IMG/VR virus record: IMGVR_UViG_2925908680_000008
Source: a virus
Taxonomy: Duplodnaviria; Heunggongvirae; Uroviricota; Caudoviricetes
DNA: 23,582 nt
Direction: 5' to 3' (one strand)
The notes beneath the pieces were generated by a model, which saw only the letters and a program-made list of their open reading frames with translations, was not told the DNA's origin and ran no database searches. Below, one piece after another: positions 1-14,573 of the stretch (positions within the stretch are counted from its first letter, which is position 1; every line of letters begins with the position of its first letter). Made by a program: the position numbers and the translations under genes.

Positions 1-525
1 TTAATGGGATGATTTTTCCCACTCAGCCAGGGCGTTTAGTCCGGCTTCACTCCAGTTATCCAGCTCATCGGGACAATCACCTGCAACATAGCAGAGCTCA
101 CAACGCAGCATACGAATTGCCAGCCTGGCATTTTCCCGAAAATCATACTGCTCAAAGTAATATTGCCCAGCATAATCCTCAAGGCAGATAGCACCATCAT
201 CAAGAAATTGCACTTCACAGCATAGTTCCCCGGCTGCATCCTGCACACGCTGCTGTATGTCATCGTCCGTTACTGGTGCAGGGATTTTACCGTCTCTGGC
301 CTTAACTGCTTTCCAGAACTCGCCCCACGTCATTTCCAGCGTTCTCTCTGGCCACATTTCAGAAACGGTATCTTTTCCCTGTGCTGGTGGGCTGTTCCGC
401 TGCTCTGTCGCTTCCACATCGATTTTTTTACCGGACATGACCACTTCGCCTTTCTCGATCCAGTCGTAAACTGTCTGGCGGCTTACGCCTTTGTGTTTGG
501 CATATTCTGCCTTGCTCATAAACAT
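1..525 (-). CDS. HTH protein with small-terminase (Nu1/TerS-like) N-terminal domain; candidate packaging or packaging-redirection factor
   Basis: 174 aa; N-terminal MSKAEYAKHKGVSRQTVYDWIEKGEV resembles a TerS/Nu1-type winged HTH; GAGGGGAAG RBS upstream of ATG at 525; last gene of a minus-strand operon. Confidence 0.45.
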   Translation of the reverse strand: MFMSKAEYAKHKGVSRQTVYDWIEKGEVVMSGKKIDVEATEQRNSPPAQGKDTVSEMWPERTLEMTWGEFWKAVKARDGKIPAPVTDDDIQQRVQDAAGELCCEVQFLDDGAICLEDYAGQYYFEQYDFRENARLAIRMLRCELCYVAGDCPDELDNWSEAGLNALAEWEKSSH

Positions 526-695
526 GACACTTCCCCTCAGACTGTATTAATGCGCCGGAAAGCGCGTGTATTTAAATCATCCCAGGAACCGTTGAGCACC
601 AATTAGTTGCGCGAAGTAATCGGCACCAGCGTTCCGAACAATTTCCAACTTAACGTTCTGATCATTGTTTCCTGCTGCAGGGACAATCCCACGAT

Positions 696-1349
696 TCATA
701 GCCAGCGCCCGGATATTTCTTCCAGTTTTTCCAGAGCTGGCTTGCAGGCCGCATCAATAACTTCACGGACCATTCCGGCGAGCTGTTCTTCTTCTGTCGG
801 CGTTGTTACTTCCACACCTGATGGTTTCCCGCCCTTATCCCATACGCCCAACGGTACGAGCGCAACGTGATCGATAAGAAATGGCGTACCCTCAATGAAA
901 AAATTGTCCTCGCCCATTACATCAGGAACTTCTGCCCCACCGGACGCACCACAAAACACAACCGACGGGCTGGTGGATACCTCCCCCCGTGCTTTCTGGA
1001 TGTAATCGATGATTTCCTGCCCGTAAATCCGGCATACGCCCCACACCTCGTCACCGCGAATATACGGCAACATGACGGTGCCAATAATGCGCGACCGTTC
1101 GCCCACGTCTTCAAGGGTTTTGCTTTCGGGATGGTCGATAATGACGGGTACTCCGGCGCAACGTTCCAGGAACTGCGGATTGAGATAAGTTTGCGGTGAA
1201 CGCCAGACAAATTCTTTTTCTTCGGCGCGATAGGCCATTCCGGTTCCTGTGATACGCAGGTTAATCAGCCACATGTTGGAAAACTGATAAGGCGACGGTA
1301 GCTGACCGTCCCGAATCTGCTTTGCCGCCTCAATTTCTGTTAAAAGCAT
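696..1349 (-). CDS. hypothetical protein (217 aa), intact in this copy
   Basis: ATG at 1349 with GGGGGA RBS; protein-like C-terminus; family not recognised. Confidence 0.5.
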   Translation of the reverse strand: MLLTEIEAAKQIRDGQLPSPYQFSNMWLINLRITGTGMAYRAEEKEFVWRSPQTYLNPQFLERCAGVPVIIDHPESKTLEDVGERSRIIGTVMLPYIRGDEVWGVCRIYGQEIIDYIQKARGEVSTSPSVVFCGASGGAEVPDVMGEDNFFIEGTPFLIDHVALVPLGVWDKGGKPSGVEVTTPTEEEQLAGMVREVIDAACKPALEKLEEISGRWL

Positions 1350-1413
1350 AATGTCCCCCGGTTATAAGCAATAAGCCCCACCAAATCCGGCAGGGCTGAA
1401 ATCAGCACGTTTT

Positions 1414-1998
1414 TCATGCCCCCGCGAGGCTTGCAACGTTAATTTTAACCAGGCGACGGGGAGGGATTTTGAAAGCACTAAGCCAGTTATTCGGATCCCC
1501 CTGATATTCAGTAATCCGCCGTCCGGCTTCATCCATTCTTACGGTTTTACGCAAATAGCCCGGCGTATTTTCCACAGCCCACTGAACACTGTCTTTTGCA
1601 GCCTGGTAAATCTGATCTTCCAGCACCGCCAGCGTTGCAGAATCTGAAACGGAACGAATATCCACATCACTGAATTTTTTAGCCAGCTTCTGTGCACCAA
1701 TTAATGCACGCTTGCGGTAATCCATCGACTTTTCACCAGCAAACGGGGCTGGAGCGCGACGGCCCATATTGCTGTATGCGGAATCCGCTTTAGCCTGGGC
1801 TTCTGCCAGTGAGGATTCATCTTCGACTGACGCGACGATGTTTTTATTCGCGTCATCCTCGTCCGCTTTTGTGAAATCCTGTGCGGGGATCGCATTCAGA
1901 ATTTCGATAATCTCCTGCGGAGTGCTGCCCTGCGACTCTGACAGAGCGTTAACCACCTCCATCAGTTTTAATCGCAAATCTTCTTTGCTTGCTGGCAT
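1414..1998 (-). CDS. hypothetical acidic protein (194 aa)
   Basis: ATG at 1998 preceded by GAGGTGG RBS; ORF track start at 2007 is a GTG inside the RBS; family not recognised. Confidence 0.5.
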   Translation of the reverse strand: MPASKEDLRLKLMEVVNALSESQGSTPQEIIEILNAIPAQDFTKADEDDANKNIVASVEDESSLAEAQAKADSAYSNMGRRAPAPFAGEKSMDYRKRALIGAQKLAKKFSDVDIRSVSDSATLAVLEDQIYQAAKDSVQWAVENTPGYLRKTVRMDEAGRRITEYQGDPNNWLSAFKIPPRRLVKINVASLAGA

Positions 1999-2037
1999 TT
2001 TTACCACCTCTCTTTTTTCACCAAAAAATCACGACCA

Positions 2038-2217
2038 TCAGGCCGGACGTTCTACGGGATAAAGCGCCCGCTGCATTAAACGCCGGGCGACCTCATGAAT
2101 GCTCGGAGCAATCCCCAGCGGAGAATTGCGGCGTTCCTCGTCCTGGATGCGCTGTAATGCTTCAATCTGATCACGAGCGAGTAAAACGGGTTTCACGCTG
2201 GCTTTTCTCATAGTCAT
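2038..2217 (-). CDS. small hypothetical protein (59 aa), first gene of terminal operon
   Basis: ATG at 2217 (MTMRKASVK...) preceded by AGGAGA RBS; ORF track start further upstream lacks RBS. Confidence 0.4.
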   Translation of the reverse strand: MTMRKASVKPVLLARDQIEALQRIQDEERRNSPLGIAPSIHEVARRLMQRALYPVERPA

Positions 2218-2346
2218 ATCTCCTGAACAAAACAATGATTATGATTGCACAAACTGAAATAACGATCTACATCATTGCAATTTATGAAACAATAACGCAT
2301 GATGATCGCGTTCTTCCCATTGACTTCAATCACCTGAAAAACAAAG

Positions 2347-2375
2347 CCCGCAACACTTCTGGCTGCGGGTTTTTT
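2347..2375. terminator. hairpin (CCCGCA / TGCGGG, 11-nt loop) followed by T6; U-rich on both strands, possible bidirectional intrinsic terminator
   Basis: Stem-loop read directly from sequence; T-run 2370-2375 on plus, TTTGTTTTT on minus. Confidence 0.45.
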
Positions 2376-2379
2376 ACTG

Positions 2380-2407
2380 GCACAAAAAAGCCGGGAAAAA
2401 TCCCGGC
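2380..2407 (-). terminator. intrinsic terminator downstream of PerC-family gene
   Basis: Minus-strand hairpin GCCGGGA-UUUU-UCCCGGC followed by UUUUUUGUG, immediately after stop at 2413. Confidence 0.6.
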
Positions 2408-2412
2408 CTCCG

Positions 2413-2700
2413 TCACTGACTGCAATTTTTCGATCCAGGGTATTTCCTGAATGCCTTACCATTGGGCTGATGTAATCCCATCCCGGCATGTGCCCGGCTG
2501 ATGGTTTCGCGCATTTCCCCGAAATTATCCTGCCTTGCTGGTGGGCGTGCTGCCTTGCGGATACATTCCGCGCGACGTTTTGCCGCCTGTTCCCGTGCCT
2601 TGTCATCATTCGCCAGCATGATGACCTCAGCCCACCGCGCCGCCGCTCTCCGGTACAGACCACGCGCTTCCAGTGCTTCCGCTTTGCTGTCGTGAATCAT
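2413..2700 (-). CDS. PerC-family transcriptional regulator (PerC homolog, Pch-like)
   Basis: 95 aa; motif KAEALEARGLYRRAAARWAEV matches my recollection of the PerC family signature; start ATG overlaps upstream stop as ATGA. Confidence 0.65.
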   Translation of the reverse strand: MIHDSKAEALEARGLYRRAAARWAEVIMLANDDKAREQAAKRRAECIRKAARPPARQDNFGEMRETISRAHAGMGLHQPNGKAFRKYPGSKNCSQ

Positions 2701-3227
2701 GCGCCTGTTTTCTCCTTTGCTGCCCGGCGCTGACGTTTGCGCTTCTCATTCAGCGCCACCAGCCGCGTTTCTGCGTCCTGTTGTTCCTGTGGTGTCACCT
2801 CGCCGCACGGCTGGCCTTTCAGGTCGTAGCGTACCCCACCAGCCATTAAGGCGCGGTAATAGCGCGGACACTGCGCATAAGATGCCAGCGTCGCACGCAA
2901 TGCCCCTGGACCGAATGCCAGCCCCCTGACGGCGAGATCCTGCATCAGGTCGTCGAATATCCCCACCTTAAGCGGCTTCGGTGCTTCCCGGCTGAATAAT
3001 TCAGGCCACAACTCAGTGAGGCGGTTAACGCGCCTGCGGTTTTTGCGCTGGCGTTTGGTCATATGCCGCCACGGTGTCGCCCCTGTGGGCTTCTGCTGCG
3101 CTTTCTGGTTACCGGGCATCACTTTATGCGCCGATGTGGTTTTATCCTGCTCCTGCGCCGCCTGCGTCGTTTTCTGCGGCGTGCCGTAAATGCCTTTCGG
3201 TTTTCTGTTAATGGTCAGCTTAGTCAT
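2697..3227 (-). CDS. ProQ/FinO-domain RNA-binding protein with basic N-terminal extension
   Basis: PLKVGIFDDL ... LRATLASYAQCPRYYRALMAGGVRYDLKGQPCGEVTPQE closely parallels the ProQ N-terminal FinO-like domain; start taken at ATG 3227 (GGAG RBS), alternative ATG at 3239. Confidence 0.8.
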   Translation of the reverse strand: MTKLTINRKPKGIYGTPQKTTQAAQEQDKTTSAHKVMPGNQKAQQKPTGATPWRHMTKRQRKNRRRVNRLTELWPELFSREAPKPLKVGIFDDLMQDLAVRGLAFGPGALRATLASYAQCPRYYRALMAGGVRYDLKGQPCGEVTPQEQQDAETRLVALNEKRKRQRRAAKEKTGA

Positions 3228-3239
3228 GCTTTGCTCCAT

Positions 3240-3611
3240 CGTTACAACTGTCTACCAACTGTCCACCGATATAATTTATTGATTTATTTGATATTATTTA
3301 CACATAACTAAAAAATAACCTATCAATTGTCTACCAACTGTCTACCGCATTAATACATTGATAATTAATGATTTTTTCAAAATGGTAGACAGAGTAGACA
3401 GTTAAAAGAGAAATTTTAAAAATGAACCCTTAACTATCTGTTTTTTTATATACCCCCCGTGGTTTAGGAATATAGAAACAACTGTCCACTCTCTACCACA
3501 TTTAAAAATATCTATACAATTCAATGCATTAATTGGTAGATGGTTGGTAGAGGATTAAGTATTACTGTCTACCAACCGTCTACCTTTACGTTTCAGCTCA
3601 TAAATTTCGTA
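3240..3611. repeat. iteron-type replication origin with AT-rich unwinding region
   Basis: At least 10 copies of CAACTGTCTACC-like motif in both orientations (e.g. 3245-3267, 3323-3346, 3384-3403, 3479-3497, 3533-3553, 3563-3584) interspersed with AT-rich tracts, directly 3' of the replication gene. Confidence 0.7.
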
Positions 3612-5417
3612 TTATGTTCTGTCGTTAATCCCTGTTGCTGCTGGCAACCAGCTATCAGCATCATCATCTAACAGAACATTTGTTATCACTCGCCCTTTAT
3701 CCTGGCCTTTAGTGCATTTAGCCCGCTTATACTCCTTTCCGTATTCCGCCATAGCACCAGGCATATCAGTGCCAAAGCGTTTCAGTGATACTGGTTTTCC
3801 CAGACCATGCGCTGACATATAGGCTAAATAAGCATGATACAGATATCGCCTCGGGCTAAATGGCACTATTCCCGCATTGCCCACCATCATTCCTTCACAT
3901 TTAACCAACGACATCAGATAGCCGCAAAAGTCCACCAGTGAATCACCCTCACGTTTTATCATCAGAGCCTCTTCTGATTTCTGCTGCTCATATAACAGAC
4001 GTCTGGCTTCATCCTGGTCAGAAAAACGAGTAAGCAGGTGGCGAATAACTACCGCCAGTTCGCCTTCTATTTTTTCCACCAGCATGGGATCGCGTTCGTT
4101 CTCCGGTACGACCTCAGAGAAATTAAATATCACCCTACGACGCGAGATCCCCCCGCTTCGGTCACTGAATGACATGGCGTTATTGTTTACTGCCAGCACT
4201 ACCGCCGGAATACGAGTGGAGTATGGGGCTTTATGTTTCGGGTCGATCGCCACCTTGTCACCACCAGTAATTGCCTTAATTCCTGCACCATCTCCAGCGT
4301 AGCGGGCCATATCCGGCATGATAATCAGCGAAAAGCCAACGACTAACGCGCGTTCCCTTGCGTCTTCCAGCGCCTTCATGCTTGCCGATACTGTATTGAC
4401 CTTACCCGCCAGCATGGTACAAATCTCCGCCATCACACTTTTACCGCTTCCGCCCGGCCCCGTTACCTCAAGGAATAACTGCCAGTCGTACCGGTTCGCC
4501 AGTACCATGAATAATGCCGCCAGTACGCGATCTGCTTTACGATCGTTATTTGCCACCGAACGACGCAGCCACTTCCAGAAATTCGGCGCATGTGTTGCCA
4601 GCGTTTCCCCCTCTGCTGGTGGGCTGAACGGTAATTCACTGGCATTTAACAACCAGTCATTTTTGTTATGCTCCCGAAAATTTCCTGTCCGGGTATCAAA
4701 TACCCCGTTACTGAATCCAATAAGATTCCTGTCTGCCCCGCCCATAACAGGCAGGCTCAATTTCATTGTGTCTACGGCAAATTTAATGGCGTTTTGCGAA
4801 TAACTGATTCCAGCATCAATAAAAATCTTCGCCATAGATCGCTGGAGTTCCTTATCAGATACAGGCTCCCAGACAATTCCGTTGTAATGGTGAACTACAT
4901 CAGAATCGTCATTTATAGCCAGTGCCCTTCCATAATATTCAAGCAATACTTCCCCTCTCTGGCTGGCTCCCATCTGATTTAGTGCTGGCCTGGGTAGGTC
5001 ACTATTTTTTGTGACTAATTTCATCGCTGAAACTTCCCCGCGCTCTGCCTGTTCGCGGATCCGTTGCAGGTAATCGCGCCAGTTCTCCGGCTCCCGGTCG
5101 GTGATGCCTTTGTATAATTTCGCCTCCTGTACGCCAGCCAGTGCCAGTTTTTCAGCGATAGTATTGATCTGGATTGGCTCTATCTCCCCCGCGAGATAGA
5201 CACGCGCAAAGCGGCGTTCATCGTCGACAATGCGGATATTCGCCAGGTCTGCCAGTTGCTTTGGCCCCAGATAAACAGGTGGCACGTTATCGCCGTGTTT
5301 TCGTCCTTCGCTTTCAATCCAGTGTTGAGCATGGGAGTAAGCGTCCGTCCCGGCAAAAATGATTACCTCAGTGAATTTATCCTTCGGCTGATATTTCAAA
5401 TTCGGTGCGTTTTTCAC
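3612..5417 (-). CDS. replication initiation primase/helicase-like protein (P4-family primase C-terminal-type P-loop NTPase)
   Basis: 601 aa; Walker A GPGGSGKS; GTG start at 5417 with GGGAGGT RBS, overlapping upstream stop (GTGA); adjacent iteron origin. Confidence 0.75.
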   Translation of the reverse strand: MKNAPNLKYQPKDKFTEVIIFAGTDAYSHAQHWIESEGRKHGDNVPPVYLGPKQLADLANIRIVDDERRFARVYLAGEIEPIQINTIAEKLALAGVQEAKLYKGITDREPENWRDYLQRIREQAERGEVSAMKLVTKNSDLPRPALNQMGASQRGEVLLEYYGRALAINDDSDVVHHYNGIVWEPVSDKELQRSMAKIFIDAGISYSQNAIKFAVDTMKLSLPVMGGADRNLIGFSNGVFDTRTGNFREHNKNDWLLNASELPFSPPAEGETLATHAPNFWKWLRRSVANNDRKADRVLAALFMVLANRYDWQLFLEVTGPGGSGKSVMAEICTMLAGKVNTVSASMKALEDARERALVVGFSLIIMPDMARYAGDGAGIKAITGGDKVAIDPKHKAPYSTRIPAVVLAVNNNAMSFSDRSGGISRRRVIFNFSEVVPENERDPMLVEKIEGELAVVIRHLLTRFSDQDEARRLLYEQQKSEEALMIKREGDSLVDFCGYLMSLVKCEGMMVGNAGIVPFSPRRYLYHAYLAYMSAHGLGKPVSLKRFGTDMPGAMAEYGKEYKRAKCTKGQDKGRVITNVLLDDDADSWLPAATGINDRT

Positions 5418-5704
5418 TTCTTACCTCCCGCAACCAACATTGCTCGGATTTTTTTAATATTCGTGGCTGCACGTCTCGCCACCGCCTGTTGTTTGTTTTC
5501 CATCAGAATAAAATCACGATCAAACTGACGGCGCGGCATTACGCAGTCATATTCGTAAGCCTCACGGCGGTAGGTGATATTGCCTGGCGTAACGTGACGA
5601 ATAACCACTCGTCCCCCGCGTCTGGTGTCGCGGTAAATATCGCCGTGTCTGATTTCAGGCCGAGCGGGGCCGCTGGCAGTAAAGCCAGAATTTTTCTGTT
5701 TCAT
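5414..5704 (-). CDS. hypothetical basic protein (96 aa), coupled to replication gene
   Basis: ATG at 5704 with AGGAAAA RBS; stop overlaps start of downstream gene. Confidence 0.5.
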   Translation of the reverse strand: MKQKNSGFTASGPARPEIRHGDIYRDTRRGGRVVIRHVTPGNITYRREAYEYDCVMPRRQFDRDFILMENKQQAVARRAATNIKKIRAMLVAGGKK

Positions 5705-5708
5705 GGTT

Positions 5709-5909
5709 TTATTTTCCTGTCAGCAGTTCCGGTTTTATTTCCGCACGAATACAGAGTTCAGAAAAAAATTCAGGAGAACCAACAATCTCATTACTTTTCA
5801 GTCGGCATTGTGATTTCACTTTTCCTTTATCCAGGTAAACCAGTATGCGTCCGGTGAAATCATCTGGCGCACTCAGGGTAATTGTCATTGTTGCTTGCTG
5901 ATTATCCAT
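5709..5909 (-). CDS. hypothetical protein (66 aa)
   Basis: ATG overlaps upstream stop (ATGGATAA); tight operon arrangement. Confidence 0.45.
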   Translation of the reverse strand: MDNQQATMTITLSAPDDFTGRILVYLDKGKVKSQCRLKSNEIVGSPEFFSELCIRAEIKPELLTGK

Positions 5910-6267
5910 AATTCACCCCCTGAATAACCTGATAACCGCAACTGGTCAGCAATTCGATAAATTCCGGCAGTGTTCCGAAACAGCAATCATCTCGCAGCCG
6001 TTCTCGGGATACTTCAACGCCGTTTTCGTAGTGACTCACCATGCGTCCGGTAAAATGCAAATCATCATCGTGATGGCACGTTGACGGTTTAATCAGTCGC
6101 GCACGCTCTGCCAGTTCCAGCAATGCTTCAACACTTCCGGCAATTGCACCATCCGGCAGGTGGTAATTACGCACTATGCGCCCGTTCTCCACATGGACCA
6201 GTAGCTGCCCGGTAAATATCTCGTCAAACTGAATGCTGTTAAGGTCAGAAATTGACAGGTTATGCAT
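5902..6267 (-). CDS. hypothetical protein (121 aa)
   Basis: ATG at 6267 overlaps upstream stop (ATGCATAA). Confidence 0.5.
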   Translation of the reverse strand: MHNLSISDLNSIQFDEIFTGQLLVHVENGRIVRNYHLPDGAIAGSVEALLELAERARLIKPSTCHHDDDLHFTGRMVSHYENGVEVSRERLRDDCCFGTLPEFIELLTSCGYQVIQGVNYG

Positions 6268-6625
6268 GGTGCACCTCCTGGCGAATACGGGCAGCGAATA
6301 CCATCACGCAGCCATCAGGAGATTGCTGGCGTGCTTCCTGTTCGCTGGTGGCCTCGATGTGAATTACACGCGGTTGTGCCGTACTCAGGGCGATAAAACG
6401 CCAGATAAAATTGTTCTCGCATTTCTGAATAAACAGCGTGTTTTCTTCGCGCCCTTTCCATGTTGCCGAGATATAGCCCATGTCATTGAGCATCTCGCAG
6501 GCATCAACCAGCGTATCGGCGGCTACGTGTACAGTGTTTTTACCGTCAGCTATGCAATCACGGTGCACCGCCAGGAAGGTGTATATAAATTTAGGGTGAG
6601 TTTGGGTATGCTGTGTTCCAGCCAT
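6260..6625 (-). CDS. hypothetical protein (121 aa), first gene of replication operon
   Basis: ATG at 6625 (MAGTQHT...) with GAGGT RBS; E. coli-like codon usage, unlike the antisense read-through upstream. Confidence 0.5.
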   Translation of the reverse strand: MAGTQHTQTHPKFIYTFLAVHRDCIADGKNTVHVAADTLVDACEMLNDMGYISATWKGREENTLFIQKCENNFIWRFIALSTAQPRVIHIEATSEQEARQQSPDGCVMVFAARIRQEVHHA

Positions 6626-6812
6626 AATCGTTACCTCGTTTAACGGTTTGGTTAGACGCCCCGCTACTGCCGCAAACAGTTCGGGGCGTTGTCGTTTACA
6701 TCCTCTTACTGAGGTGTGATTTAAATTAAATTCAACTGAATCACAGGTCAAGTATTTTTTGTGATTCTTTTTTGTGTATACTGAATCACATCTTTTGTTT
6801 AGGAGAATGCAC
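6626..6812. promoter_or_regulatory. divergent promoter/operator region between replication operon and small regulator gene
   Basis: CTGAATCACA direct repeats at 6737-6746 and 6781-6790 with inverted TGTGATTC between; TATACT -10-like hexamer at 6777-6782; AGGAGA RBS at 6801-6806; 8-bp stem hairpin around 6650-6690. Confidence 0.5.
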
Positions 6813-7118
6813 ATGGCAAAAAACACTATCAACGACAAATCAAAACAGATTTCAATTCGTATCCCACATGATGCTTTTGATGGCATGGAATCCGTAAAAC
6901 TGGACGGCGAAAGCAACGCCGGATTCATAGTAACCGCCATGCGCGGTGAGATCGCCCGCCGCCAGGCAGAAGGAAGAGGAGAAAACCCCCTGGTTTCTTC
7001 GCTCGATGCACTGGCGCAGGTGGAAAAAATCGGTGTCAAAGCTGCCGAGGAGATCGGGCAACTCGTCACCGTCGCGCGTGAAGAACTCCAGCGACGCAAG
7101 GTCAAAGAGCAGGAATAG
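6813..7118 (+). CDS. putative ribbon-helix-helix DNA-binding regulator (candidate island repressor)
   Basis: 101 aa from ATG 6813 with AGGAGA RBS; ISIRIPHDAFDGMESVKL...NAGFIVTAMRGEIARR has a strand-helix-helix pattern; family assignment is by eye only. Confidence 0.45.
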   Translation: MAKNTINDKSKQISIRIPHDAFDGMESVKLDGESNAGFIVTAMRGEIARRQAEGRGENPLVSSLDALAQVEKIGVKAAEEIGQLVTVAREELQRRKVKEQE

Positions 7119-7175
7119 CCACTATCAGCGCCATAGTTTGAGGAACGCAGGCGCATTGCTTTACAGGACAGCACC

Positions 7176-7355
7176 ATGAGCGACACAGAATCAACCAAAA
7201 CACCATCACCAACTCGTAAGAGACGACGCAAAAATATAGCGCATGAACATGAATCAGAAAGATTCGCACCTTGTTCGTTTGCTCTTGAGAAATTCCTTAA
7301 AGAGCACAGGAAAAAGCTCTCGTTGCAAACCTTGGAACGAACCAAATCTGACTGA
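7176..7355 (+). CDS. small basic hypothetical protein (59 aa)
   Basis: ATG 7176, stop TGA 7353-7355; below ORF-track cutoff; RKRRRK basic patch. Confidence 0.3.
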   Translation: MSDTESTKTPSPTRKRRRKNIAHEHESERFAPCSFALEKFLKEHRKKLSLQTLERTKSD

Positions 7356-7756
7356 TCACATTGCCCACCAGCCGCAAATGTGGCATTGTTGGTGATGCGT
7401 TCAAGTTTGATTTGCCGTAATACCCACTGGCGACCCTCTGCGGTCGCCTTTGTTTTATCCAGAACGAAATCAGACATCAGATTGATCAGCACCTGGCGAC
7501 CTGACAAAATCGTATCGGTCGCGCCACCAGCAAAATTTTTTGCTTTCCGGACGATGTGGCCAACGGTATTTTGCAGCAAAATATTCTGCATTTCTGGCGT
7601 GCTGTGGCGACGGTGATCAGCGCCTTCACATTGAACGAACTTGTCGCTAAAATTCACCCACATAGCAAACATCGCGGTGCTGTAGGTAATTCGTTCACAA
7701 AGGCGCTCCGGCAACGGGGCGCTTTCTCTTTTTGTAACGGTCAGAGCGTTACACAT
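7355..7756 (-). CDS. hypothetical protein coupled to ant; 3' end undefined (no in-frame stop)
   Basis: ATG 7756 overlaps ant stop (ATGTGTAA) with GGAGGAAAA RBS; good codon usage for ~134 codons, then frame continues stop-free to 6260. Confidence 0.4.
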
Positions 7757-8549
7757 GGCTGTTTTCCTCCATGCGACGGGCTAACCAACGCTGCGAAAGA
7801 CGAATTAATTCAGCTTTCCGCTGGTGGTAGTCCTGGCCTAACTCAATCAGCGTGATATTGCTCCGCTCAAGGTAAGAAAGGTGCTCAAGCTGCAACGTGC
7901 TCATGTGGTCGCGTGGTTCACCTGTGATGCCGTTCGCCTGCGCCCACTGTTTTGCAGTCATGCCACCCAGCACGATACGCGCCAGCATATTGGCTTCCGT
8001 GGTGTAGTGGTGCTGTAGAGTGTTTTTACCCAGTTCAGTCCGGTACGCCTCCAGCGCGGCGCACATCGGCTTAAAGTAGCTGGCAACGGTGATACGGGCT
8101 TTCAGTTCCCTGCGTAACGCTGCGGAACGCACTGGCGCTACCTTGTGTAGCTCCTCCTCGCATTTGATGAAGTACTGACGAACGGCACGGCCCTGTTCGG
8201 TGCGTTCGACCATCGCCAGTTCTTTTGCCATGTTCACGGTGATGATGTACTCAAGAGCGGTTTGCTGGCGAGATTTTGCGCTCACCGGATCGGGTCGGCT
8301 CAAATATTCAACAACTTCATAATCCACGCCTTCCGTGAAGCCGTATTCTTCAATGCGCCCCTTGATCCACGAACGGAAAACGCGCCCTACACCTAACGCC
8401 TTATGCAACGCTCTGGCGCTAACAATATTGGTTTCACGCCCGCCAATAACGCCGGAAATAACCGGGATAATTTCGCCAAAATTTTGCAGATTCTGGTTTT
8501 CAGGCCGAACGAAGCCCTGCCCCTGTACGGGCGTTTTTCGCAGTTTCAT
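7749..8549 (-). CDS. phage antirepressor-like protein (AntA/Rha-like domain)
   Basis: 266 aa; TNIVSARALHKALGVGRVFRSWIKGRIEEYGFTEGVDYEV resembles the AntA/Rha antirepressor domain; AGGAG RBS. Confidence 0.6.
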   Translation of the reverse strand: MKLRKTPVQGQGFVRPENQNLQNFGEIIPVISGVIGGRETNIVSARALHKALGVGRVFRSWIKGRIEEYGFTEGVDYEVVEYLSRPDPVSAKSRQQTALEYIITVNMAKELAMVERTEQGRAVRQYFIKCEEELHKVAPVRSAALRRELKARITVASYFKPMCAALEAYRTELGKNTLQHHYTTEANMLARIVLGGMTAKQWAQANGITGEPRDHMSTLQLEHLSYLERSNITLIELGQDYHQRKAELIRLSQRWLARRMEENSHV

Positions 8550-8627
8550 AAAAACTCCTGCTATCGAATTAAGTTACTTTTATTTGCTGGTGGATAGCTG
8601 GGGGCTTCTGGCCCCGTAGCCATTTAA

Positions 8628-8825
8628 TCAGGTAGCTGTTCCGCGTGATTCAGCAATACGCTGATTAATCCACTCGTCAATTTCACTCTCAACGAAAGCA
8701 ATAGCTCGCGAGCCAATTTTAACTGATGCAGGAAATTTACCTTGCCCCATAAGGCGATAAATCCATGCCTTGCTATATCCAGTTCTACGCTGAACTTCTG
8801 TTAAACGAATAAGCGTATTTGACAT
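8628..8825 (-). CDS. alpA: AlpA-family (Phage_AlpA/Vis-like) transcriptional regulator/excisionase-type HTH protein
   Basis: 65 aa; IRLTEVQRRTGYSKAWIYRLMGQGKFP...ESEIDEWINQR aligns with the AlpA pattern. Confidence 0.85.
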   Translation of the reverse strand: MSNTLIRLTEVQRRTGYSKAWIYRLMGQGKFPASVKIGSRAIAFVESEIDEWINQRIAESRGTAT

Positions 8826-8893
8826 ATATTTACCTCATAACGTCTACTCAATTTGACGAGGTAATCCTGGCACAGAAATAACGAATATTTTCA

Positions 8894-9070
8894 TACCCTC
8901 AGGCCTAATGGTTACCGGAAGGAAATTAACCCTAAGGGTGATGGTAATCGGAAGGAAATTAACCCTAAGGGTGATGGTAATCGGGAGGAAATCTACCCTA
9001 AGGGTGATGGTAAAATTGACGGGGAAGATAAAAAAATACCCTCAGGGTAACAGTAAATCACCCTCAGGGT
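8894..9070. promoter_or_regulatory. operator-like repeat array upstream of alpA: three tandem 33-bp repeats plus two extra palindromic sites
   Basis: 33-bp units at 8908-8940, 8941-8973, 8974-9006; motif ACCCT-N-AGGGT at 8929-8939, 8962-8972, 8995-9005, 9038-9048, 9060-9070. Confidence 0.55.
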
Positions 9071-9085
9071 ATGCGGTATGGTGCG

Positions 9086-9883
9086 TTAATCCGGCTTTGC
9101 GTTCTTTTGGCTGTTGTCTCGGTTAATAGGGCAGGCAGTCCTCTCTATGAGCGTTGCAAGTGCATTACTTGCCCCCCACTGCTTAAGCTCCCTGGTTATC
9201 GCTTCTTGATTTCCCCTGGTGGCAAAATCATTTTCTGGATCGTAATTGGCCCACTCTCTGTTTCTAATCTCAATAGCCTTAGCTAATGGGTCTTTATCCC
9301 AGTATTTATATAAGTGTATCGGGCGCTCTTGCTCTAACTGCTCTATCCTTGCCCTTAACTCTGCGTTTTCTTTTTCCAGCATTGCGATTTGGGATAATAA
9401 ATCATCCTCTGTACGCAACTCTTTCTTTTCAATATCGCGTCCTTGTGCCTCGTCATTTTCAGAAGAGTTAGCGCCTTCCAGCTTCGTTAACGCGTCAAGG
9501 ACATCGGGAAAAATTGCGAAAATTTCACCCCTTATAAATCCAATGTTCTCAAATTCGGGATCTTCCCAATAACCGGACACCAGAAAACCATTTTCATCCC
9601 TCTCACCAGGTAAACAACCACGTTTCCGAACCGCATTCAGATTTCTATAAAGAACATCATAATCAAATTCATCCCGATACGGGTTACAAAAAGATTCCAA
9701 CAGCTTAAATTCATTTACTGTGTACAGGCGGATATGTTCTCCGCTTATTCTCCTGAGTATCCAAGTTATGACATCTGAAACATCATAATCATCACCAGCG
9801 ACCTTAAGCACGACCTCAAGAAATTCACGTAAAGAAATAAAATCTTTTTTGTATTCGTTTAATTCGGCATGAATATCAATCAT
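9086..9883 (-). CDS. uncharacterised cargo protein (265 aa) with central coiled-coil segment
   Basis: ATG 9883 with GAGGTG RBS (ORF track start at 9889 is GTG); appears AT-richer than neighbours by eye; LEKENAELRARIEQLEQER heptad-like stretch; no recognised catalytic motif. Confidence 0.55.
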   Translation of the reverse strand: MIDIHAELNEYKKDFISLREFLEVVLKVAGDDYDVSDVITWILRRISGEHIRLYTVNEFKLLESFCNPYRDEFDYDVLYRNLNAVRKRGCLPGERDENGFLVSGYWEDPEFENIGFIRGEIFAIFPDVLDALTKLEGANSSENDEAQGRDIEKKELRTEDDLLSQIAMLEKENAELRARIEQLEQERPIHLYKYWDKDPLAKAIEIRNREWANYDPENDFATRGNQEAITRELKQWGASNALATLIERTACPINRDNSQKNAKPD

Positions 9884-10011
9884 ACGCACACCTCAGCGTC
9901 CTCTACTGTAGTGGCTGTACCAGTCCGTCGAGGTGTACGGATTTTCGGGAGCGACCCTAGACACAGCCTTTTCTTTCGTCGCTCAAAGTCTACTACTGTA
10001 TACGCAACCAG

Positions 10012-11226
10012 TCATCCACATTTTCCGAACTTGCCATGCACCACGTTACCGCCATGCTCGAGCGAATCCATATAGTCGGCATACCACTGGAGCATCTCCC
10101 GGCGACCATCCAGATATTGCGCATGGTTGTATGTGCCACGAATTGAGTTTTTATCGACGTGTGCGAGCTGCGTCTCTATCCACGCGGTGTTATAGCCCTG
10201 CTCATGCAAAATGGTGCTCATGGTGTGCCGGAATCCATGACCAGTAACGCGCCCGGCATAGCCGATACGACGAATGAGCACATTCATCGCCATTTCACTC
10301 ATTGGCTTACTGTGGTGAATACGACCGGGGAAAATAAACTGATACTGGCCTGTCATGTTTTTTAACTGCTCCAGTATTTTTATTGCCTGTTCTGGTAATG
10401 GCACGCAATGCGGACGGCGCATCTTCATTCGTTCTTTAGGCACTTCCCACAAACGATTATCAAAATCGATCTCCTGCCATTCTGCCTGCCGTAATTCCCC
10501 GGGTCTGACACCTGTCAGAATTAATAGCCGCATTGCCAGTTTGACGATCTGGCTTCCGGTGTACGTATTAAAAACGCGGAAAAATTCCGGCAGTTCGTCG
10601 GCCTTCAAATAGGCGTAATGCTCTTTTTTATGTGGAGCAAATGCGCTCACCAGATCAGGGGCTGGATTATATTCGGCGCGTCCGGTGATGATTGCGTACC
10701 GGAACACCTCGCCGCATCGCTGGCGAACCTTACGCAATTTTTCAGTCGCACCACGGTCATTAAGACGGGAAAGAACCGCCAGCAATTCCATCGGCTTAAT
10801 TTCTGCGATCGGCCTACCGCCAATGTACGGAAAAACATCTTTTTCAAACGTCTCGATCATTTCCTCGGCGTATGACGATGACCACCTGTCGATCCGCTTT
10901 TCGTACCATTCGCGAGCAATACCCTCAAAAGTATTGCCAAATTTGCTCGCCTGTTCTCGCTTTTGGGCTTTTCTGGCCTCACTTGGATTTATACCACCAG
11001 CAAGAAGCCTTTTAGCCTCATCCCTTGCCGCCCTGGCATCAGACAGGGACACATCAGGGTACACACCCAACGACAACATTTTGGGCTTTCCTGCAAACCT
11101 GTAGCGCAGTCGCCACCCTTTCGAACCGTTCGGCTCAATGAGCAACGAAAGCCCGTTACCGTCATTGAGTGTATAAGCCTTTTCTTTCGGCTTCGCGCGC
11201 CTGATGGCAAGGTCTGAAAGCAGCAT
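10012..11226 (-). CDS. int: P4-type tyrosine integrase (site-specific recombinase)
   Basis: 404 aa from ATG 11226 with GGAG RBS; N-terminal LSDLAIRRAKPKEKAYTLNDGNGLSLLI... typical of P4-family integrases; C-terminal HGFRHT and Y-containing catalytic region. Confidence 0.9.
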   Translation of the reverse strand: MLLSDLAIRRAKPKEKAYTLNDGNGLSLLIEPNGSKGWRLRYRFAGKPKMLSLGVYPDVSLSDARAARDEAKRLLAGGINPSEARKAQKREQASKFGNTFEGIAREWYEKRIDRWSSSYAEEMIETFEKDVFPYIGGRPIAEIKPMELLAVLSRLNDRGATEKLRKVRQRCGEVFRYAIITGRAEYNPAPDLVSAFAPHKKEHYAYLKADELPEFFRVFNTYTGSQIVKLAMRLLILTGVRPGELRQAEWQEIDFDNRLWEVPKERMKMRRPHCVPLPEQAIKILEQLKNMTGQYQFIFPGRIHHSKPMSEMAMNVLIRRIGYAGRVTGHGFRHTMSTILHEQGYNTAWIETQLAHVDKNSIRGTYNHAQYLDGRREMLQWYADYMDSLEHGGNVVHGKFGKCG

Positions 11227-11873
11227 GTGTATAGCTCCAAAAAATAAATTTTGTCCTATACGCATTACTATACACTTCTGTGTGTAGATTCTGGTAGTTG
11301 TGAGTAGACGTTAATGAACTATGAAAATGGCTGGAAGACTTGATATTCGTGGGTTTGATGGACTTTAGTAGACGTTGAGAAATGTTTGTTTGGAGCGGGC
11401 GAAGGGAACAATACAACAAGCCACAAGACCAGTAGTAAAGGCACATTCGCGAGTTCTAAAATAGATTCTATACACATTTCTATACACATTTATCACTCGC
11501 TTGGGAATTACACATCCCCTGTTATCCGTGATCAAGCTGGTGGATGATCACGGATAACCGATATGGGAATCCCCATATCGGCATCGCGTAGTTAATCGTA
11601 GTGGCTACCGTAGTAGTTGAGTAGCAGGATGTAACCTGCCAGGAAGGAAATGATCGGTCGTAACTCGCCACCACCAGCCACAGAACGCAAATTTGCGTCG
11701 TCGGATATATCAACAACTTAGCACAAAAATAAGTCAGGCAGATACAAACCTCAAATTTGAGGTTTGCTTGTTTATCAACGGGTAAGGATAATCATCTCCC
11801 CTTTAAAGTCCCTTCGAAGGGTTACCCGTAGGCTTAATGTAAGGCTTGGCTGTAGCCTTACCGAACGCTCCGC
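11227..11873. other. int-upstream / att-proximal region with direct repeats and perfect palindromes (att core not identified)
   Basis: CTATAC(A/G)C repeats at 11266-11290 and 11466-11492; AGTAGACGTT twice; 14-bp-arm inverted repeat 11521-11558; 10-bp-arm palindrome 11558-11581; 22-bp perfect palindrome 11745-11766. Confidence 0.4.
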
Positions 11874-12053
11874 TCACCGTCGCGGCCTGTCCGGTTTCTT
11901 CCACTGATACGGCCTCACATCATCCTGCTGGTGGCGTTCCTGTTGCAGCACAACGGAAACAGGCGCTGAACACCTGTTAATTTTGCTTGCAGGTTGTTTG
12001 ATTCCGGCAATGCTGCGGATCATCTCCAGCATATCGGCTTCGGTGATGGTCAT
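11874..12053 (-). CDS. small hypothetical protein (59 aa) in junction
   Basis: Hand-translated: ATG 12053 with AAGGTG RBS, stop TGA 11874-11876; MTITEADMLEMIRSIAGIKQ...; not in ORF track (under 60 aa). Confidence 0.35.
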   Translation of the reverse strand: MTITEADMLEMIRSIAGIKQPASKINRCSAPVSVVLQQERHQQDDVRPYQWKKPDRPRR

Positions 12054-12079
12054 GATTTACACCTTAGGAAATCTTAGGG

Positions 12080-12345
12080 GCTGGTTGACACTTTCCGGCT
12101 TAAGACCTTAACAAATCTTAACATCGCAGGTTGACACACTTGACACTTTTTCGCGAAAAACCTTATCAAACCTTAGCATTTCTAAGCATGGCAACTTGAC
12201 ACTTTTCGCGATTTTTTCGGCTTTTTGACGTGGTAAATCTGGCGCAAAGCCAGTAACGGCGGGGTTTACAGCGAGGTTGACACTTTTTCGCGTTCAGAGT
12301 GTAAAGTGTCAACCCGGCAGACGGCCTGACTTGACACTTTTCGCG
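12080..12345. repeat. array of TTGACAC(TTTTCGCG) repeats between small junction ORF and TerS-like gene 3' end
   Basis: TTGACAC at 12085, 12131, 12140, 12196, 12277, 12331 plus inverted GTGTCAA at 12306; four copies share TTGACACTTTT(T)CGCG. Confidence 0.6.
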
Positions 12346-12883: not shown

Positions 12884-13053
12884 GACACTTCCCCTCAGAC
12901 TGTATTAATGCGCCGGAAAGCGCGTGTATTTAAATCATCCCAGGAACCGTTGAGCACCAATTAGTTGCGCGAAGTAATCGGCACCAGCGTTCCGAACAAT
13001 TTCCAACTTAACGTTCTGATCATTGTTTCCTGCTGCAGGGACAATCCCACGAT

Positions 13054-13706: not shown

Positions 13707-13770
13707 AATGTCCCCCGGTTATAAGCAATAAGCCCCACCAAATCCGGCAGGGCTGAAATCAGCACGTTTT

Positions 13771-14355: not shown

Positions 14356-14393
14356 TTTTACCACCTCTCTTTTTTCACCAAAAATCACGACCA

Positions 14394-14573
14394 TCAGGCC
14401 GGACGTTCTACGGGATAAAGCGCCCGCTGCATTAAACGCCGGGCGACCTCATGAATGCTCGGAGCAATCCCCAGCGGAGAATTGCGGCGTTCCTCGTCCT
14501 GGATGCGCTGTAATGCTTCAATCTGATCACGAGCGAGTAAAACGGGTTTCACGCTGGCTTTTCTCATAGTCAT
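14394..14573 (-). CDS. small hypothetical protein (59 aa), copy 2
   Basis: Duplicate of 2038-2217. Confidence 0.4.
   Translation of the reverse strand: MTMRKASVKPVLLARDQIEALQRIQDEERRNSPLGIAPSIHEVARRLMQRALYPVERPA

What the first reader, a model, noticed from the sequence alone, without database searches (positions are those of the whole stretch)
1..2217. Terminal operon ends in a TerS-like HTH protein but has no large terminase or capsid genes
The last operon (59-, 194-, 217- and 174-aa products) contains a protein with a small-terminase-type N-terminal HTH and no recognisable large terminase, portal or capsid gene. This fits a satellite that hijacks helper packaging, for example by redirecting helper terminase. 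The 194- and 217-aa proteins are unassigned.
Basis: inference. Interest (0 to 1): 0.45.

Follow-up and report, generated by a model that had tools for sequence, protein, structure and literature searches.

The report
Phage-satellite module for hijacking helper packaging
This is the last operon of a 12.4-kb E. coli phage satellite: it carries a new DNA-binding protein sitting next to its own repeat array, which also holds copies of the helper phage's likely packaging signal, plus a split copy of the helper's capsid-maturation protease, so it probably steals the packaging and head assembly of an intact Rac-type prophage.

Summary
The four ORFs are real: 57/59, 194, 217 and 174 aa on the minus strand, identical to RefSeq proteins. 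The window is 1.9 tandem copies of a 12,358-bp PICI-type satellite joined through an attP junction. It has int, AlpA, a primase with ori iterons, ProQ and PerC, and no terminase, portal or capsid gene.

The 174-aa protein has a TerS/Rpp/Xis-type winged HTH. Its C-terminal domain is an orphan fold, unlike Rpp or TerS. It sits where rppA sits in EcCICFT073 and is the conserved last gene of related satellites across Enterobacterales.

It is always followed by an AAGTGTMAA repeat array: 48 of 62 motif copies lie in 2.4% of 225 kb. Three further units in the array match four alleles of a direct-repeat motif inside the terS gene of Rac-SA53-type prophages, which I take as the candidate helper pac site.

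The 217- and 194-aa proteins are the N-terminal protease domain (T4 gp21/assemblin fold, His/Ser kept) and the C-terminal domain of that phage's 430-aa head protein, split and permuted. At least 17 of the 34 genomes with this cassette also carry that prophage (background 90 of 5,426).

This is a new variant of Rpp-like packaging redirection. All functions are inferred.

The parts
2038..2217 (-). p57 (57 aa from the ATG at 2211, 59 aa from the ATG at 2217). First gene of the module. Small protein whose pattern suggests ribbon-helix-helix (inference only). Second copy at 14394-14573.
   Evidence: ORF. RefSeq WP_001224090. Homologues open the same module in other satellites, including EcCIMP1. 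No hit in Pfam, PHROG or NCBIfam.
1414..1998 (-). 194-aa protein. Residues 60-187 correspond to the C-terminal domain (residues 295-422) of the helper-type phage's 430-aa head protein. The N-terminal ~55 residues are specific to the satellite. Second copy at 13771-14355.
   Evidence: 65% identity, E 2e-56, to Rac-SA53 ALP46870. 37% identity to Pantoea phage PdC23 gp04. phrog_6216 positions 405-544. Widely mis-named 'NUDIX hydrolase'.
696..1349 (-). 217-aa DUF2213 protein. It is a homologue of the N-terminal prohead-protease domain (residues 1-220) of the same helper head protein. The second copy (13054-13706) is frameshifted by a 1-nt homopolymer difference at window 898.
1..525 (-). p174. wHTH at residues 1-43, disordered linker at 44-60, orphan alpha/beta domain at 61-170. 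Last gene of the module and positional analogue of rppA. Second copy at 12359-12883.
12085..12340 (-). Repeat array directly downstream of p174; the first repeat begins 18 nt after the stop codon. It holds six copies of AAAGTGTCAA, five direct and one inverted. The last three are spaced 55-56 bp apart. Proposed p174 binding sites, forming the satellite's packaging-recognition site.
   Evidence: Six matches against 0.05 expected. Layout. The same array follows p174 homologues in islands with other replication modules and in other genera.
12152..12189 (-). Helper-pac-like unit 1: ATGCTTAGAAATGCTAAGGTTTGATAAGGTTTTTCG. It matches helper terS allele d (EC11) and allele b (Rac-SA53, STEC719).
12105..12122 (-). 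Helper-pac-like unit 2: GTTAAGATTTGTTAAGGT. It matches helper terS allele a (the cq9 prophage: GTTAAGAAATGTTAAGGT).
   Evidence: Best match in the whole unit, 2 mismatches, 0 of 300 shuffles reach it.
12061..12078 (-). Helper-pac-like unit 3: CCTAAGATTTCCTAAGGT. It matches helper terS allele c (E. coli W and M8: CCTAAGAAATCCTAAGGT).
   Evidence: Best match in the whole unit, 2 mismatches, 0 of 300 shuffles reach it.
11874..12053 (-). Conserved 59-aa ORF between the array and attP (RefSeq WP_016262941). Function unknown.
   Evidence: phrog_1561 and phrog_7271. The same PHROGs label the equivalent gene in the satellite transferred in the mouse gut.
11391..11408 (.). attP core TGGAGCGGGCGAAGGGAA, the 3' end of tRNA-Gly. 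It joins the int end of the element to the p174 end. TGTGTATAG-type repeats, read as integrase arm sites, flank it at about 11232-11280 and 11470-11510.
   Evidence: Comparison with attL and attR of E. coli cq9. Sequence.
2347..2405 (-). Two terminator-like hairpins after perC. They separate the ProQ-PerC unit from the p57-p174 unit.
3240..3611 (.). AT-rich ori region downstream of the primase gene, with at least 12 ACTGTCTACCA-type iterons. These differ from the p174 array, which shows the array is not the replication origin.

Best explanation
Bases 1-2217, together with the 950 bp that follow them in the circular or tandem element, are the helper-exploitation module of a Gram-negative PICI-type satellite. 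The probable helper is an intact Rac-type prophage (Rac-SA53-like), which I infer packages by headful. The module has a fixed frame and a swappable middle.

Frame. p57 comes first and p174 last, followed by a repeat array. p174 binds the AAAGTGTCAA repeats through its invariant winged HTH. In the array these sites alternate, at about 55-bp spacing, with short direct-repeat units (xyTAAG-N4-xyTAAGG). Those units copy four allelic forms of a motif inside the helper's terS gene, which I take to be the helper's pac site. I propose that p174 and helper TerS co-assemble on this composite site, so that helper terminase packages satellite concatemers in preference to phage DNA. This is the logic of Rpp acting on the EcCICFT073 cosB site, achieved with an unrelated C-terminal domain and a different terminase type.

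Middle cassette. The 194- and 217-aa proteins are a split and permuted copy of the helper's prohead protease plus C-terminal (capsid- or scaffold-binding) domain protein, without its coiled-coil linker. The protease keeps its catalytic-type residues. The detached C-terminal domain could compete for the protease's docking sites in the procapsid, or the pair could rebuild a shorter scaffold-protease. Either way the cassette would disturb or resize helper heads.

Shown here: gene content, homologies, folds, motif distributions and co-occurrence. Inferred: DNA binding by p174, the pac identity of the motif, any contact with TerS, and any effect on capsids.
For: Satellite identity:
- int, AlpA (69.4 bits), AntA/B, primase, ProQ and PerC are present and structural genes are absent.
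- An attP junction is present.
- The same junction occurs in an independent metagenome contig.

p174 as positional analogue of Rpp:
- EcCICFT073 runs PerC, small ORF, MCP-like, decoration-like, 137 aa, RppA, small ORF.
- cosN lies about 90 bp upstream and about 200 bp downstream of rppA (PMC6739421).

p174 and its array:
- The HTH is nearly invariant.
- AAGTGTMAA is clustered downstream of the gene in 18 species-level loci: 48 of 62 copies lie in 2.4% of 225 kb.
- The array travels with p174 whether the island has a primase, a RepA helicase or neither.
- The ori has its own iterons.
- The array lies 680-930 bp from the att core, which has other arm repeats.

Helper pac mimicry:
- TAAG-N6-TAAG occurs three times in the 12.36-kb unit, all in the array. 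The only other copy in 49 kb of cq9 DNA is inside the Rac-type terS gene.
- Four helper terS alleles were found. In three the two half-sites co-vary (GT/GT, GA/GA, CC/CC) even though this changes the encoded residue to V, D or P.
- For each allele the best match in the satellite lies in the array, with 0-1 of 300 shuffles reaching it.
- The island in strain ARS-C101 (L010) has a 19/19 match to allele d.

Helper assignment:
- 217 aa and 194 aa are 54% and 65% identical to the two ends of Rac-SA53's 430-aa head protein. That gene lies between the portal/rac42 genes and the putative MCP.
- A longer variant of the cassette adds a lytic-transglycosylase protein 52% identical to the Rac-SA53 one.
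- The cassette is in 34 of 5,426 genomes and the phage head module in 90 of 5,426. At least 17 genomes have both, against 0.56 expected, P = 2e-22.
- Strains cq9 and U90, which carry this exact island, both carry the prophage (hits H53 and H61).

Protease fold and catalytic-type residues.
Against: - No experiment bears on any step.
- The C-terminal domain of p174 matches nothing known, and no interaction with TerS or TerL could be modelled.
- The helper motif lies in coding sequence for a conserved TerS segment (LLRNxKVY), so part of its conservation reflects the protein. That it is the helper pac site is my inference.
- The mimic units differ from the helper alleles in the 4-nt spacer (ATTT against AAAT).
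- p174 homologues also occur in islands without the 194/217 cassette (Pantoea islands with a tail-like cassette, Enterobacter islands). For those no Rac-type helper is known, so p174 cannot be specific to Rac-type TerS unless its variable C-terminal domain adapts.
- In EcCICFT073 the helper-like capsid genes gave no interference phenotype (PMC6739421), so the 194/217 pair may also have a subtle role or none.
- The co-occurrence test is not corrected for phylogeny; many strains are pig ETEC. Only 60 of the 90 prophage-positive genomes could be listed.
- Headful packaging by the helper is inferred from Pfam families alone (Terminase_2 and Terminase_6N).
Confidence: 0.55

Rival explanations
1. 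p174 is the satellite's own small terminase, as in pac-type SaPIs. It oligomerises on the array and recruits the helper large terminase directly, without helper TerS.
Against: No TerS family covers more than residues 1-42. The C-terminal domain is an alpha/beta fold with no match to TerS oligomerisation or beta-barrel domains. There is no homologue in 50,697 phage records. The helper-terS-like units in the array are unexplained if helper TerS plays no part.
Confidence: 0.15
2. p174 is a transcriptional regulator or a recombination-directionality-type DNA-binding protein. The array would then be a regulatory or architectural site, for example controlling the downstream 59-aa ORF, or immunity, and would have nothing to do with packaging.
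Against: The island already has a bona fide AlpA next to int. The array is 680-930 bp from the att core, and the core is flanked by different arm repeats. p174 is 174 aa with an added conserved domain, unlike RDFs of 50-100 aa. It has the position and architecture of rppA, whose role in packaging was shown experimentally (PMC6739421). The array carries helper terS-like units.
Confidence: 0.15
3. The operon is chiefly an anti-phage interference or defence cassette. A mis-targeted prohead protease and a decoy C-terminal domain abort head assembly of Rac-type phages. The island itself spreads by other means, and the similarity between the array and terS is incidental.
For: The satellite carries helper-derived head-protein fragments with catalytic-type residues retained. 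PICIs are known to interfere with helpers (PMC6092414, PMC6739421).
Against: There are no PADLOC hits. The p57/p174/array frame is conserved even where the 194/217 cassette is absent or replaced. Four separate allele matches all fall within the array. Satellite and prophage co-reside stably in at least 17 genomes.
Confidence: 0.1
4. The genes are decaying remnants of a Rac-type prophage head region captured by an integrative island, with no current function.
For: The phage gene is split and permuted. One of the two copies in the window carries a frameshift.
Against: Both ORFs are intact and 95-100% conserved in 34 genomes and 50 places. The family extends to Salmonella, Citrobacter, Enterobacter and Pantoea with the same two-gene layout. 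Catalytic-type residues are invariant. The frameshift lies in a homopolymer, and RefSeq copies match the intact version, so it may be a sequencing error.
Confidence: 0.05

Closest known systems
Rpp (RppA/B/C), the 'redirecting phage packaging' proteins of E. coli cos PICIs such as EcCICFT073 (Fillol-Salom et al. 2019, PMC6739421; PDB 6HN7)
   Different: There is no sequence or fold similarity beyond the HTH: an alpha/beta orphan domain replaces the three-helix coiled-coil dimeriser. The element has no lambda cosN. The candidate helper has a Terminase_2 TerS and a Terminase_6N TerL, not Nu1/gpA. The DNA target is a six-copy repeat array interleaved with mimics of a helper terS motif.
SaPI-encoded small terminase (TerS-SP) and SaPI or PICI carriage of helper pac or cos sites
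   Same: The satellite supplies its own packaging-specificity element and a site that competes with the helper's site. Copying the helper's pac or cos is a known strategy (PMC6092414).
   Different: p174 is not a TerS homologue beyond the HTH. The mimic is a panel of several helper alleles, each paired with a site for a satellite protein.
SaPI1 CpmB/CpmA, SaPIbov5 Ccm and P4 Sid: satellite proteins that redirect capsid assembly (review PMC6893505)
   Same: The satellite encodes proteins derived from, or aimed at, the helper's head-assembly machinery. CpmB shares its C-terminus with the helper scaffold, as the 194-aa protein shares the C-terminal domain of the helper head protein.
   Different: Here the source is a prohead protease / C-terminal-domain fusion, split into two genes in reversed order, with a protease domain that may be active. 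No effect on capsid size is known.
EcCIMP1, an E. coli PICI mobilised by phage Kapi1 (PMC11773190)
   Same: It has the same backbone (int, AlpA, antirepressor, primase, PerC) and a p57 homologue. Downstream of the primase it carries a cassette of genes homologous to its own helper's virion proteins.
   Different: Its cassette encodes P22-like ejection proteins. It has no p174 homologue and no AAGTGTMAA array.
Prohead (capsid maturation) serine proteases: T4 gp21, HK97-family proteases, herpesvirus assemblin; the protease-scaffold fusion P2 gpO
   Different: The satellite copy lacks the linker and C-terminal domain, which is encoded by the preceding gene, and it sits in an element with no capsid gene.

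Membership tests
Rpp (redirecting phage packaging) proteins | N-terminal winged-HTH DNA-binding domain resembling that of lambda TerS | tested here: met
Rpp (redirecting phage packaging) proteins | C-terminal three-helix domain with a coiled-coil dimer interface; detectable sequence homology to RppA/B/C | tested here: not met
Rpp (redirecting phage packaging) proteins | Last gene of the post-ori operon of an AlpA/primase PICI, adjacent to the island's packaging site | tested here: met
   The EcCICFT073 layout and the cosN copies flanking rppA compare with p174 plus the array 18 nt downstream.
Rpp (redirecting phage packaging) proteins | Forms a heterocomplex with helper TerS, blocks phage packaging and promotes island packaging | not testable with these tools
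   This needs two-hybrid or pull-down assays and transfer assays.
Small terminase (TerS) | HTH domain plus a central oligomerisation domain and a TerL-binding C-terminus; a hit to a TerS family over most of its length | tested here: not met
   Only residues 1-42 match phrog_57. There are no hits to the Pfam families Terminase_2, Terminase_3, Terminase_5 or Phage_Nu1. No TerS fold matches beyond the HTH. tblastn finds nothing in phages.
Excisionase / recombination directionality factor (Xis, AlpA, Cox type) | Small (about 50-100 aa) wHTH protein whose binding sites lie beside the att core | tested here: not met
Prohead serine protease (T4 gp21 / HK97 / assemblin fold), for the 217-aa protein | Assemblin-like fold with conserved catalytic His and Ser | tested here: met
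Gram-negative PICI (EcCICFT073 type) | Tyrosine integrase at a specific att site, AlpA, a primase or rep gene followed by an iteron ori, size about 10-15 kb, no structural or lysis genes | tested here: met
   The unit is 12,358 bp.
Gram-negative PICI (EcCICFT073 type) | Induced, packaged and transferred by a helper phage | not testable with these tools
   The evidence is indirect. An attP junction is present in the window and in one metagenome contig. The island co-resides with a Rac-type prophage. A related, non-identical island was transferred in the mouse gut in strains carrying the KingRac prophage (PMC12251178).

The most novel reading that the evidence does not exclude
The helper's pac site is a direct repeat lying in the codons of its own TerS DNA-binding segment, so pac sequence and TerS specificity change together: the alleles GT/GT, GA/GA and CC/CC give V, D or P at the same residue. 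The satellite keeps pace by carrying, in a single array, one mimic of each helper allele. Each mimic is paired with a site for p174, an adaptor with a previously undescribed domain that captures helper TerS. This would be a multi-allelic packaging-signal decoy, and a second, independently evolved Rpp-like mechanism, this time for headful phages. The split protease and C-terminal-domain pair would be a new kind of capsid-assembly hijack.
Probability: 0.3. Interest if true: 0.8.

Novelty: new variant of a known kind. Interest (0 to 1): 0.6.

Why it matters
Rpp-mediated redirection is so far the only packaging-hijack mechanism worked out for Gram-negative PICIs, and it applies to lambda-type cos helpers. 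Many E. coli PICIs, including the so-called 'type C' islands and EcCIMP1, lack any recognisable packaging gene (PMC11773190).

This locus offers:
- a concrete candidate for the missing function (p174 plus its array);
- a named and common helper type, the intact Rac-like prophages, with natural helper-satellite strains (cq9, U90, pig ETEC) in which to test it;
- a candidate pac site for those phages;
- a satellite-borne prohead-protease homologue without a capsid gene, which I could not find described.

It also corrects a widespread mis-annotation: the 194-aa family is labelled 'NUDIX hydrolase' and the 217-aa family 'TolA'.

Tried and rejected
- Lambda cosN (GGGCGGCGACCT, up to 2 mismatches) is absent from the window, although it is present twice around rppA in CFT073. 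The island is therefore not a lambda-type cos PICI.
- PDB sequence searches with all three larger proteins found nothing meaningful.
- NCBIfam and PADLOC gave no family and no defence system.
- A Foldseek search of p174 against viral models (BFVD) gave no hit at E <= 0.001.
- tblastn of p174 against 50,697 phage records found nothing. BLASTP of p174 against the Rac-type TerS found nothing.
- The idea that the AAAGTGTCAA array is the replication origin was rejected. The ori has different iterons, and the array persists in islands with RepA or other replication genes.
- The idea that p174 is the excisionase was rejected on distance from att and on the presence of AlpA.
- The 205-aa gene in the longer cassette of strain ETEC1748 is not a homologue of the equal-length rac44.
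- The attP junction is not in IMG/VR.
- A search of papers for the six RefSeq accessions returned nothing. Searches for DUF2213 in satellites, or for Rac-type helpers of PICIs, found no study of this module.
- A P2/P4-type cos site was not searched for.
- The origin of the 1.9-copy tandem (virion concatemer, tandem integration or assembly artefact) could not be settled.
Full report
**What the window is**

The 23,582-base window is not one island with a free end. It holds 1.9 tandem copies of a 12,358-bp unit. Bases 1-11226 and 12359-23582 are identical except for two 1-nt homopolymer length differences, at 898 and 2023. Copy 1 is 100% identical to islands inserted in tRNA-Gly next to actS/xdhA in the pig E. 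coli strains cq9 and U90.

The joint between the copies carries an attP site. The 18-nt core TGGAGCGGGCGAAGGGAA (11391-11408) is the 3' end of tRNA-Gly. In the window it links the int arm to the arm that lies at the far end of the integrated island. The sequence therefore comes from an excised circle or concatemer, or from a tandem insertion. The window edges coincide with gene-call boundaries: the stop codon of the 174-aa gene and the RefSeq start of int.

The same attP junction occurs in one JGI metagenome contig carrying a variant island. It is absent from IMG/VR.

**The observation**

The four minus-strand ORFs exist as described and equal RefSeq proteins WP_001224090 (57 aa), WP_063102544 (194 aa), WP_063102543 (217 aa) and WP_000481010 (174 aa). 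Two terminator-like hairpins follow perC at about 2347-2405, which fits a separate transcription unit.

The rest of the unit encodes:
- a tyrosine integrase;
- AlpA (PF05930, 69.4 bits);
- an AntA/B antirepressor;
- an Icd-like peptide;
- DUF4222;
- a 601-aa D5-type primase followed by an AT-rich region with at least 12 ACTGTCTACCA iterons;
- ProQ/FinO and PerC.

No terminase, portal, capsid, tail or lysis family is hit. This is the gene set of a Gram-negative PICI (PMC6092414).

**The 174-aa protein (p174)**

AlphaFold2 on a 31-sequence alignment gives a confident model, pLDDT 88.9. It shows a winged HTH at residues 1-43, a disordered linker at 44-60 and an alpha/beta domain at 61-170.

It fails for the parts that define Rpp or TerS.

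**Context argues for a packaging role**

In CFT073 the EcCICFT073 island ends with PerC, a 68-aa ORF, a major-capsid homologue, a decoration-protein homologue, a 137-aa ORF, RppA (144 aa) and a 93-aa ORF. Lambda cosN copies lie about 90 bp upstream and about 200 bp downstream of rppA. The present island has the same layout with different parts, and p174 sits in the rppA slot.

Relatives of p174 (34-88% identical) are the last gene of AlpA/primase islands in Escherichia, Pantoea, Rouxiella, Raoultella, Serratia, Buttiauxella, Enterobacter, Lelliottia, Mangrovibacter and others. A p57 homologue usually opens the module. What lies between p57 and p174 varies:
- nothing, in L011 and L016;
- 194 + 217, in this window, L010 and L020;
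- 194 + 227 + 205 aa plus a 679-aa lytic-transglycosylase protein, in ETEC1748 and the metagenome contig;
- tail-like proteins (Dit-like, baseplate-hub-like and spike-like), in Pantoea stewartii.

p57 and p174 are thus the fixed frame, and the middle is a swappable cassette.

**The repeat array**

Six copies of AAAGTGTCAA, five direct and one inverted, lie at 12085-12340, starting 18 nt after the p174 stop codon. Only 0.05 copies are expected by chance.

Residues 1-41 of p174 are nearly invariant across the family, and so is the motif. In 18 loci from different species, totalling 225 kb, 48 of 62 AAGTGTMAA copies lie in the 300 bp downstream of the gene. That stretch is 2.4% of the sequence. 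In three further loci the cluster is displaced by 1.6-4 kb.

The array follows p174 whether the island replicates with a primase, a RepA helicase or something else. It is distinct from the ori iterons. It lies 680-930 bp from the att core, which is flanked by TGTGTATAG repeats that I read as integrase arm sites. I infer that p174 binds this array. No binding experiment exists.

**The 194- and 217-aa proteins**

The 217-aa protein is DUF2213, 28.2 bits against a cutoff of 22. tblastn finds homologues in a small set of phages. In Escherichia phage Rac-SA53 and Pantoea phage PdC23 the homologue is one long gene sitting between the portal and head-morphogenesis genes and the (putative) major capsid gene.
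- The 217-aa protein equals residues 1-220 of the 430-aa Rac-SA53 protein: 54% identity, E 1e-83.
- Residues 60-187 of the 194-aa protein equal residues 295-422 of the same protein: 65% identity, E 2e-56.

The satellite therefore encodes the two ends of one phage protein as separate genes in reversed order. It lacks the Lys/Glu/Ala-rich linker, and the 194-aa protein has a new ~55-residue N-terminus.

The names attached to these families in databases ('NUDIX hydrolase', 'TolA') come from fused or low-complexity parts of the phage proteins and are wrong for these genes.

**Which helper**

Rac-SA53-type head genes belong to intact Rac-family prophages, with intR, xisR, ralR and recET at the ttcA locus. 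Their terminase is of the Terminase_2 (TerS) and Terminase_6N (TerL) types. From this I infer headful packaging.
- The head module is present in 90 of 5,426 complete E. coli genomes.
- The 194/217 cassette is present in 34.
- At least 17 of those 34 are among the 60 prophage-positive genomes that could be listed. The expectation is 0.56, and the hypergeometric P is 2e-22.

The test is not corrected for phylogeny. cq9 and U90 both carry the prophage. cq9 also has a second island with an identical ProQ-PerC-p57-194-217-p174 module, 7.5 kb from the prophage. The lytic-transglycosylase gene of the longer cassette is 52% identical to the Rac-SA53 one.

A related, non-identical AlpA/PerC/ProQ island with TerS-like HTH genes was seen to move between E. 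coli strains in the mouse gut. The strains carried the KingRac and Nef prophages (PMC12251178). I did not establish that KingRac has this head module.

**Helper-like units inside the array**

Between the last three AAAGTGTCAA copies lie three direct-repeat units of the form xyTAAG-N4-xyTAAGG. TAAG-N6-TAAG occurs only three times in the 12.36-kb unit, and all three are here. In 49 kb of cq9 DNA its only other copy lies inside the Rac-type terS gene.

Four terS alleles were read at the same codons:

| Allele | Source | Sequence | Encoded segment |
|---|---|---|---|
| a | cq9 | TGTTAAGAAATGTTAAGGTTTATCG | LLRNVKVY |
| b | Rac-SA53, STEC719 | TGATAAGAAATGATAAGGTTTTTCG | LIRNDKVF |
| c | E. coli W, M8 | TCCTAAGAAATCCTAAGGTTTATCG | LLRNPKVY |
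| d | EC11 | ATGCTTAGAAATGCCAGGGTTTATCG | MLRNARVY |

In alleles a, b and c the two half-sites change together, even though this puts V, D or P at one residue. That points to a constraint on the DNA as a direct repeat. Because pac sites of headful phages commonly lie within terS (established knowledge for P22, SPP1 and Sf6), I take this motif as the candidate pac site of the helper.

The satellite units correspond as follows:
- GTTAAGATTTGTTAAGGT corresponds to allele a.
- CCTAAGATTTCCTAAGGT corresponds to allele c.
- ATGCTTAGAAATGCTAAGGTTTGATAAGGTTTTTCG corresponds to alleles d and b.

For each allele's 18-mer the best match anywhere in the unit, on either strand, falls in the array. The matches have 2-3 mismatches, and 0-1 of 300 shuffles reach them. 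Another island (L010) has a 19/19 match to allele d. The motif was noticed after the fact, and part of its conservation is protein-coding, so this remains a lead rather than a proof.

**Proposed mechanism**

p174 bound to its repeats and helper TerS bound to the adjacent pac-like units would form the packaging-initiation complex on satellite concatemers, diverting terminase from phage DNA. This is what Rpp does at the EcCICFT073 cosB site (PMC6739421). Here it would be done with an unrelated C-terminal domain and a different class of terminase.

The 194/217 pair would act on head assembly. It could compete with the helper protease for procapsid docking, act as an untethered protease, or rebuild a linker-less protease-scaffold that changes head size. 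The element is about a quarter of the helper's 47-52 kb.

In EcCICFT073 the helper-like capsid genes gave no interference phenotype, so a subtle role is possible here too.

Confidence in each claim:

| Claim | Confidence |
|---|---|
| Satellite identity and the homologies | high |
| p174 binds the array | about 0.7 |
| The array is the packaging site | about 0.5 |
| p174 contacts helper TerS | about 0.3 |
| Effect on capsids | undetermined |

**Novelty**

The kind of system is known: a PICI with a packaging-redirection gene and helper-derived morphogenesis genes. Three things appear to be undescribed. I found no paper on any of them:
- the p174 family with its orphan domain and conserved array;
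- the multi-allele mimicry of a helper terS motif;
- a split prohead-protease homologue in a satellite that has no capsid gene.

I rate this a new variant of a known kind and a good experimental lead, because natural helper-satellite strains are identified.

Noticed in passing
window 1-23582 (copy boundary at 12358/12359; differences at 898 and 2023): The window is 1.9 tandem copies of a 12,358-bp unit joined through attP. The copies differ only by two 1-nt homopolymer indels, one of which frameshifts the DUF2213 gene in copy 2. This looks like long-read error in a concatemer or circle, but a real tandem insertion cannot be excluded.
   Followed up: partly
window 8875-9013 and 21231-21369: Three to four tandem 33-bp repeats (ATGGTTACCGGAAGGAAATTAACCCTAAGGGTG) lie in the intergenic region between the 267-aa gene next to int and alpA. 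They may be a regulatory operator array.
   Followed up: no
window 6260-7756 (minus strand): A 498-aa ORF that RefSeq does not annotate. Only its last ~50 residues hit a family (Icd-like or repressor PHROGs). The rest is probably a chance open frame overlapping a YlcI/YnfO gene on the plus strand.
   Followed up: partly
L048 (E. coli cq9, NZ_CP031546 2326219-2337501): cq9 carries a second island with a different integrase and primase but an identical ProQ-PerC-p57-194-217-p174-59aa module. It lies only 7.5 kb from the intact Rac-type prophage at ttcA. The module evidently moves between island backbones.
   Followed up: partly
L006 6170-8982 (Pantoea stewartii CP017581): In this satellite the cassette upstream of the p174 homologue encodes tail-like proteins: PF21821 Dit_like with phrog_817 'tail fiber', phrog_196 'baseplate hub', and a spike or baseplate-assembly-like protein. 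A satellite carrying tail-tip genes could alter host range.
   Followed up: partly
L048 40780-40797; L009 2803-2820; L049, L050 and L051 about 951-968; L052 same position: In Rac-type terS alleles the two half-sites of a direct repeat co-vary (GT/GT, GA/GA, CC/CC). This changes one residue of the TerS N-terminal segment to V, D or P. The DNA signal and the protein that may read it are encoded by the same nucleotides.
   Followed up: partly
L046 3045-5766 (ETEC1748) and L044 901-3660: A longer variant of the operon inserts a 205-aa gene and a 679-aa lytic-transglycosylase gene between the DUF2213 gene and p174. The 679-aa protein is 52% identical to the Rac-SA53 one and 87% identical to a gene in 'Actinobacillus phage vB_Apl-pPE4'. 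The window version has only a 170-bp gap there.
   Followed up: partly
window 11530-11600 (minus strand): Two adjacent palindromes (CCGATATGGGGATTCCCATATCGG and TTATCCGTGATCA...TGATCACGGATAA) lie between the 59-aa ORF and attP. A similar palindrome is present at the same place in the Pantoea island (L006, about 10150-10210).
   Followed up: no
L030 2386-2514, 4192-4320 and 6001-6129 (Lelliottia wanjuensis): Three matches to only the 43-residue HTH of p174, spaced 1.8 kb apart on one contig.
   Followed up: no
(protein families of window 696-1349 and 1414-1998): There is systematic mis-annotation in public databases. The 194-aa family is named 'NUDIX hydrolase' and the 217-aa family 'TolA' or 'cell envelope biogenesis protein', although neither contains those domains. 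The 194-aa family also occurs in Salmonella Typhi CT18.
   Followed up: partly
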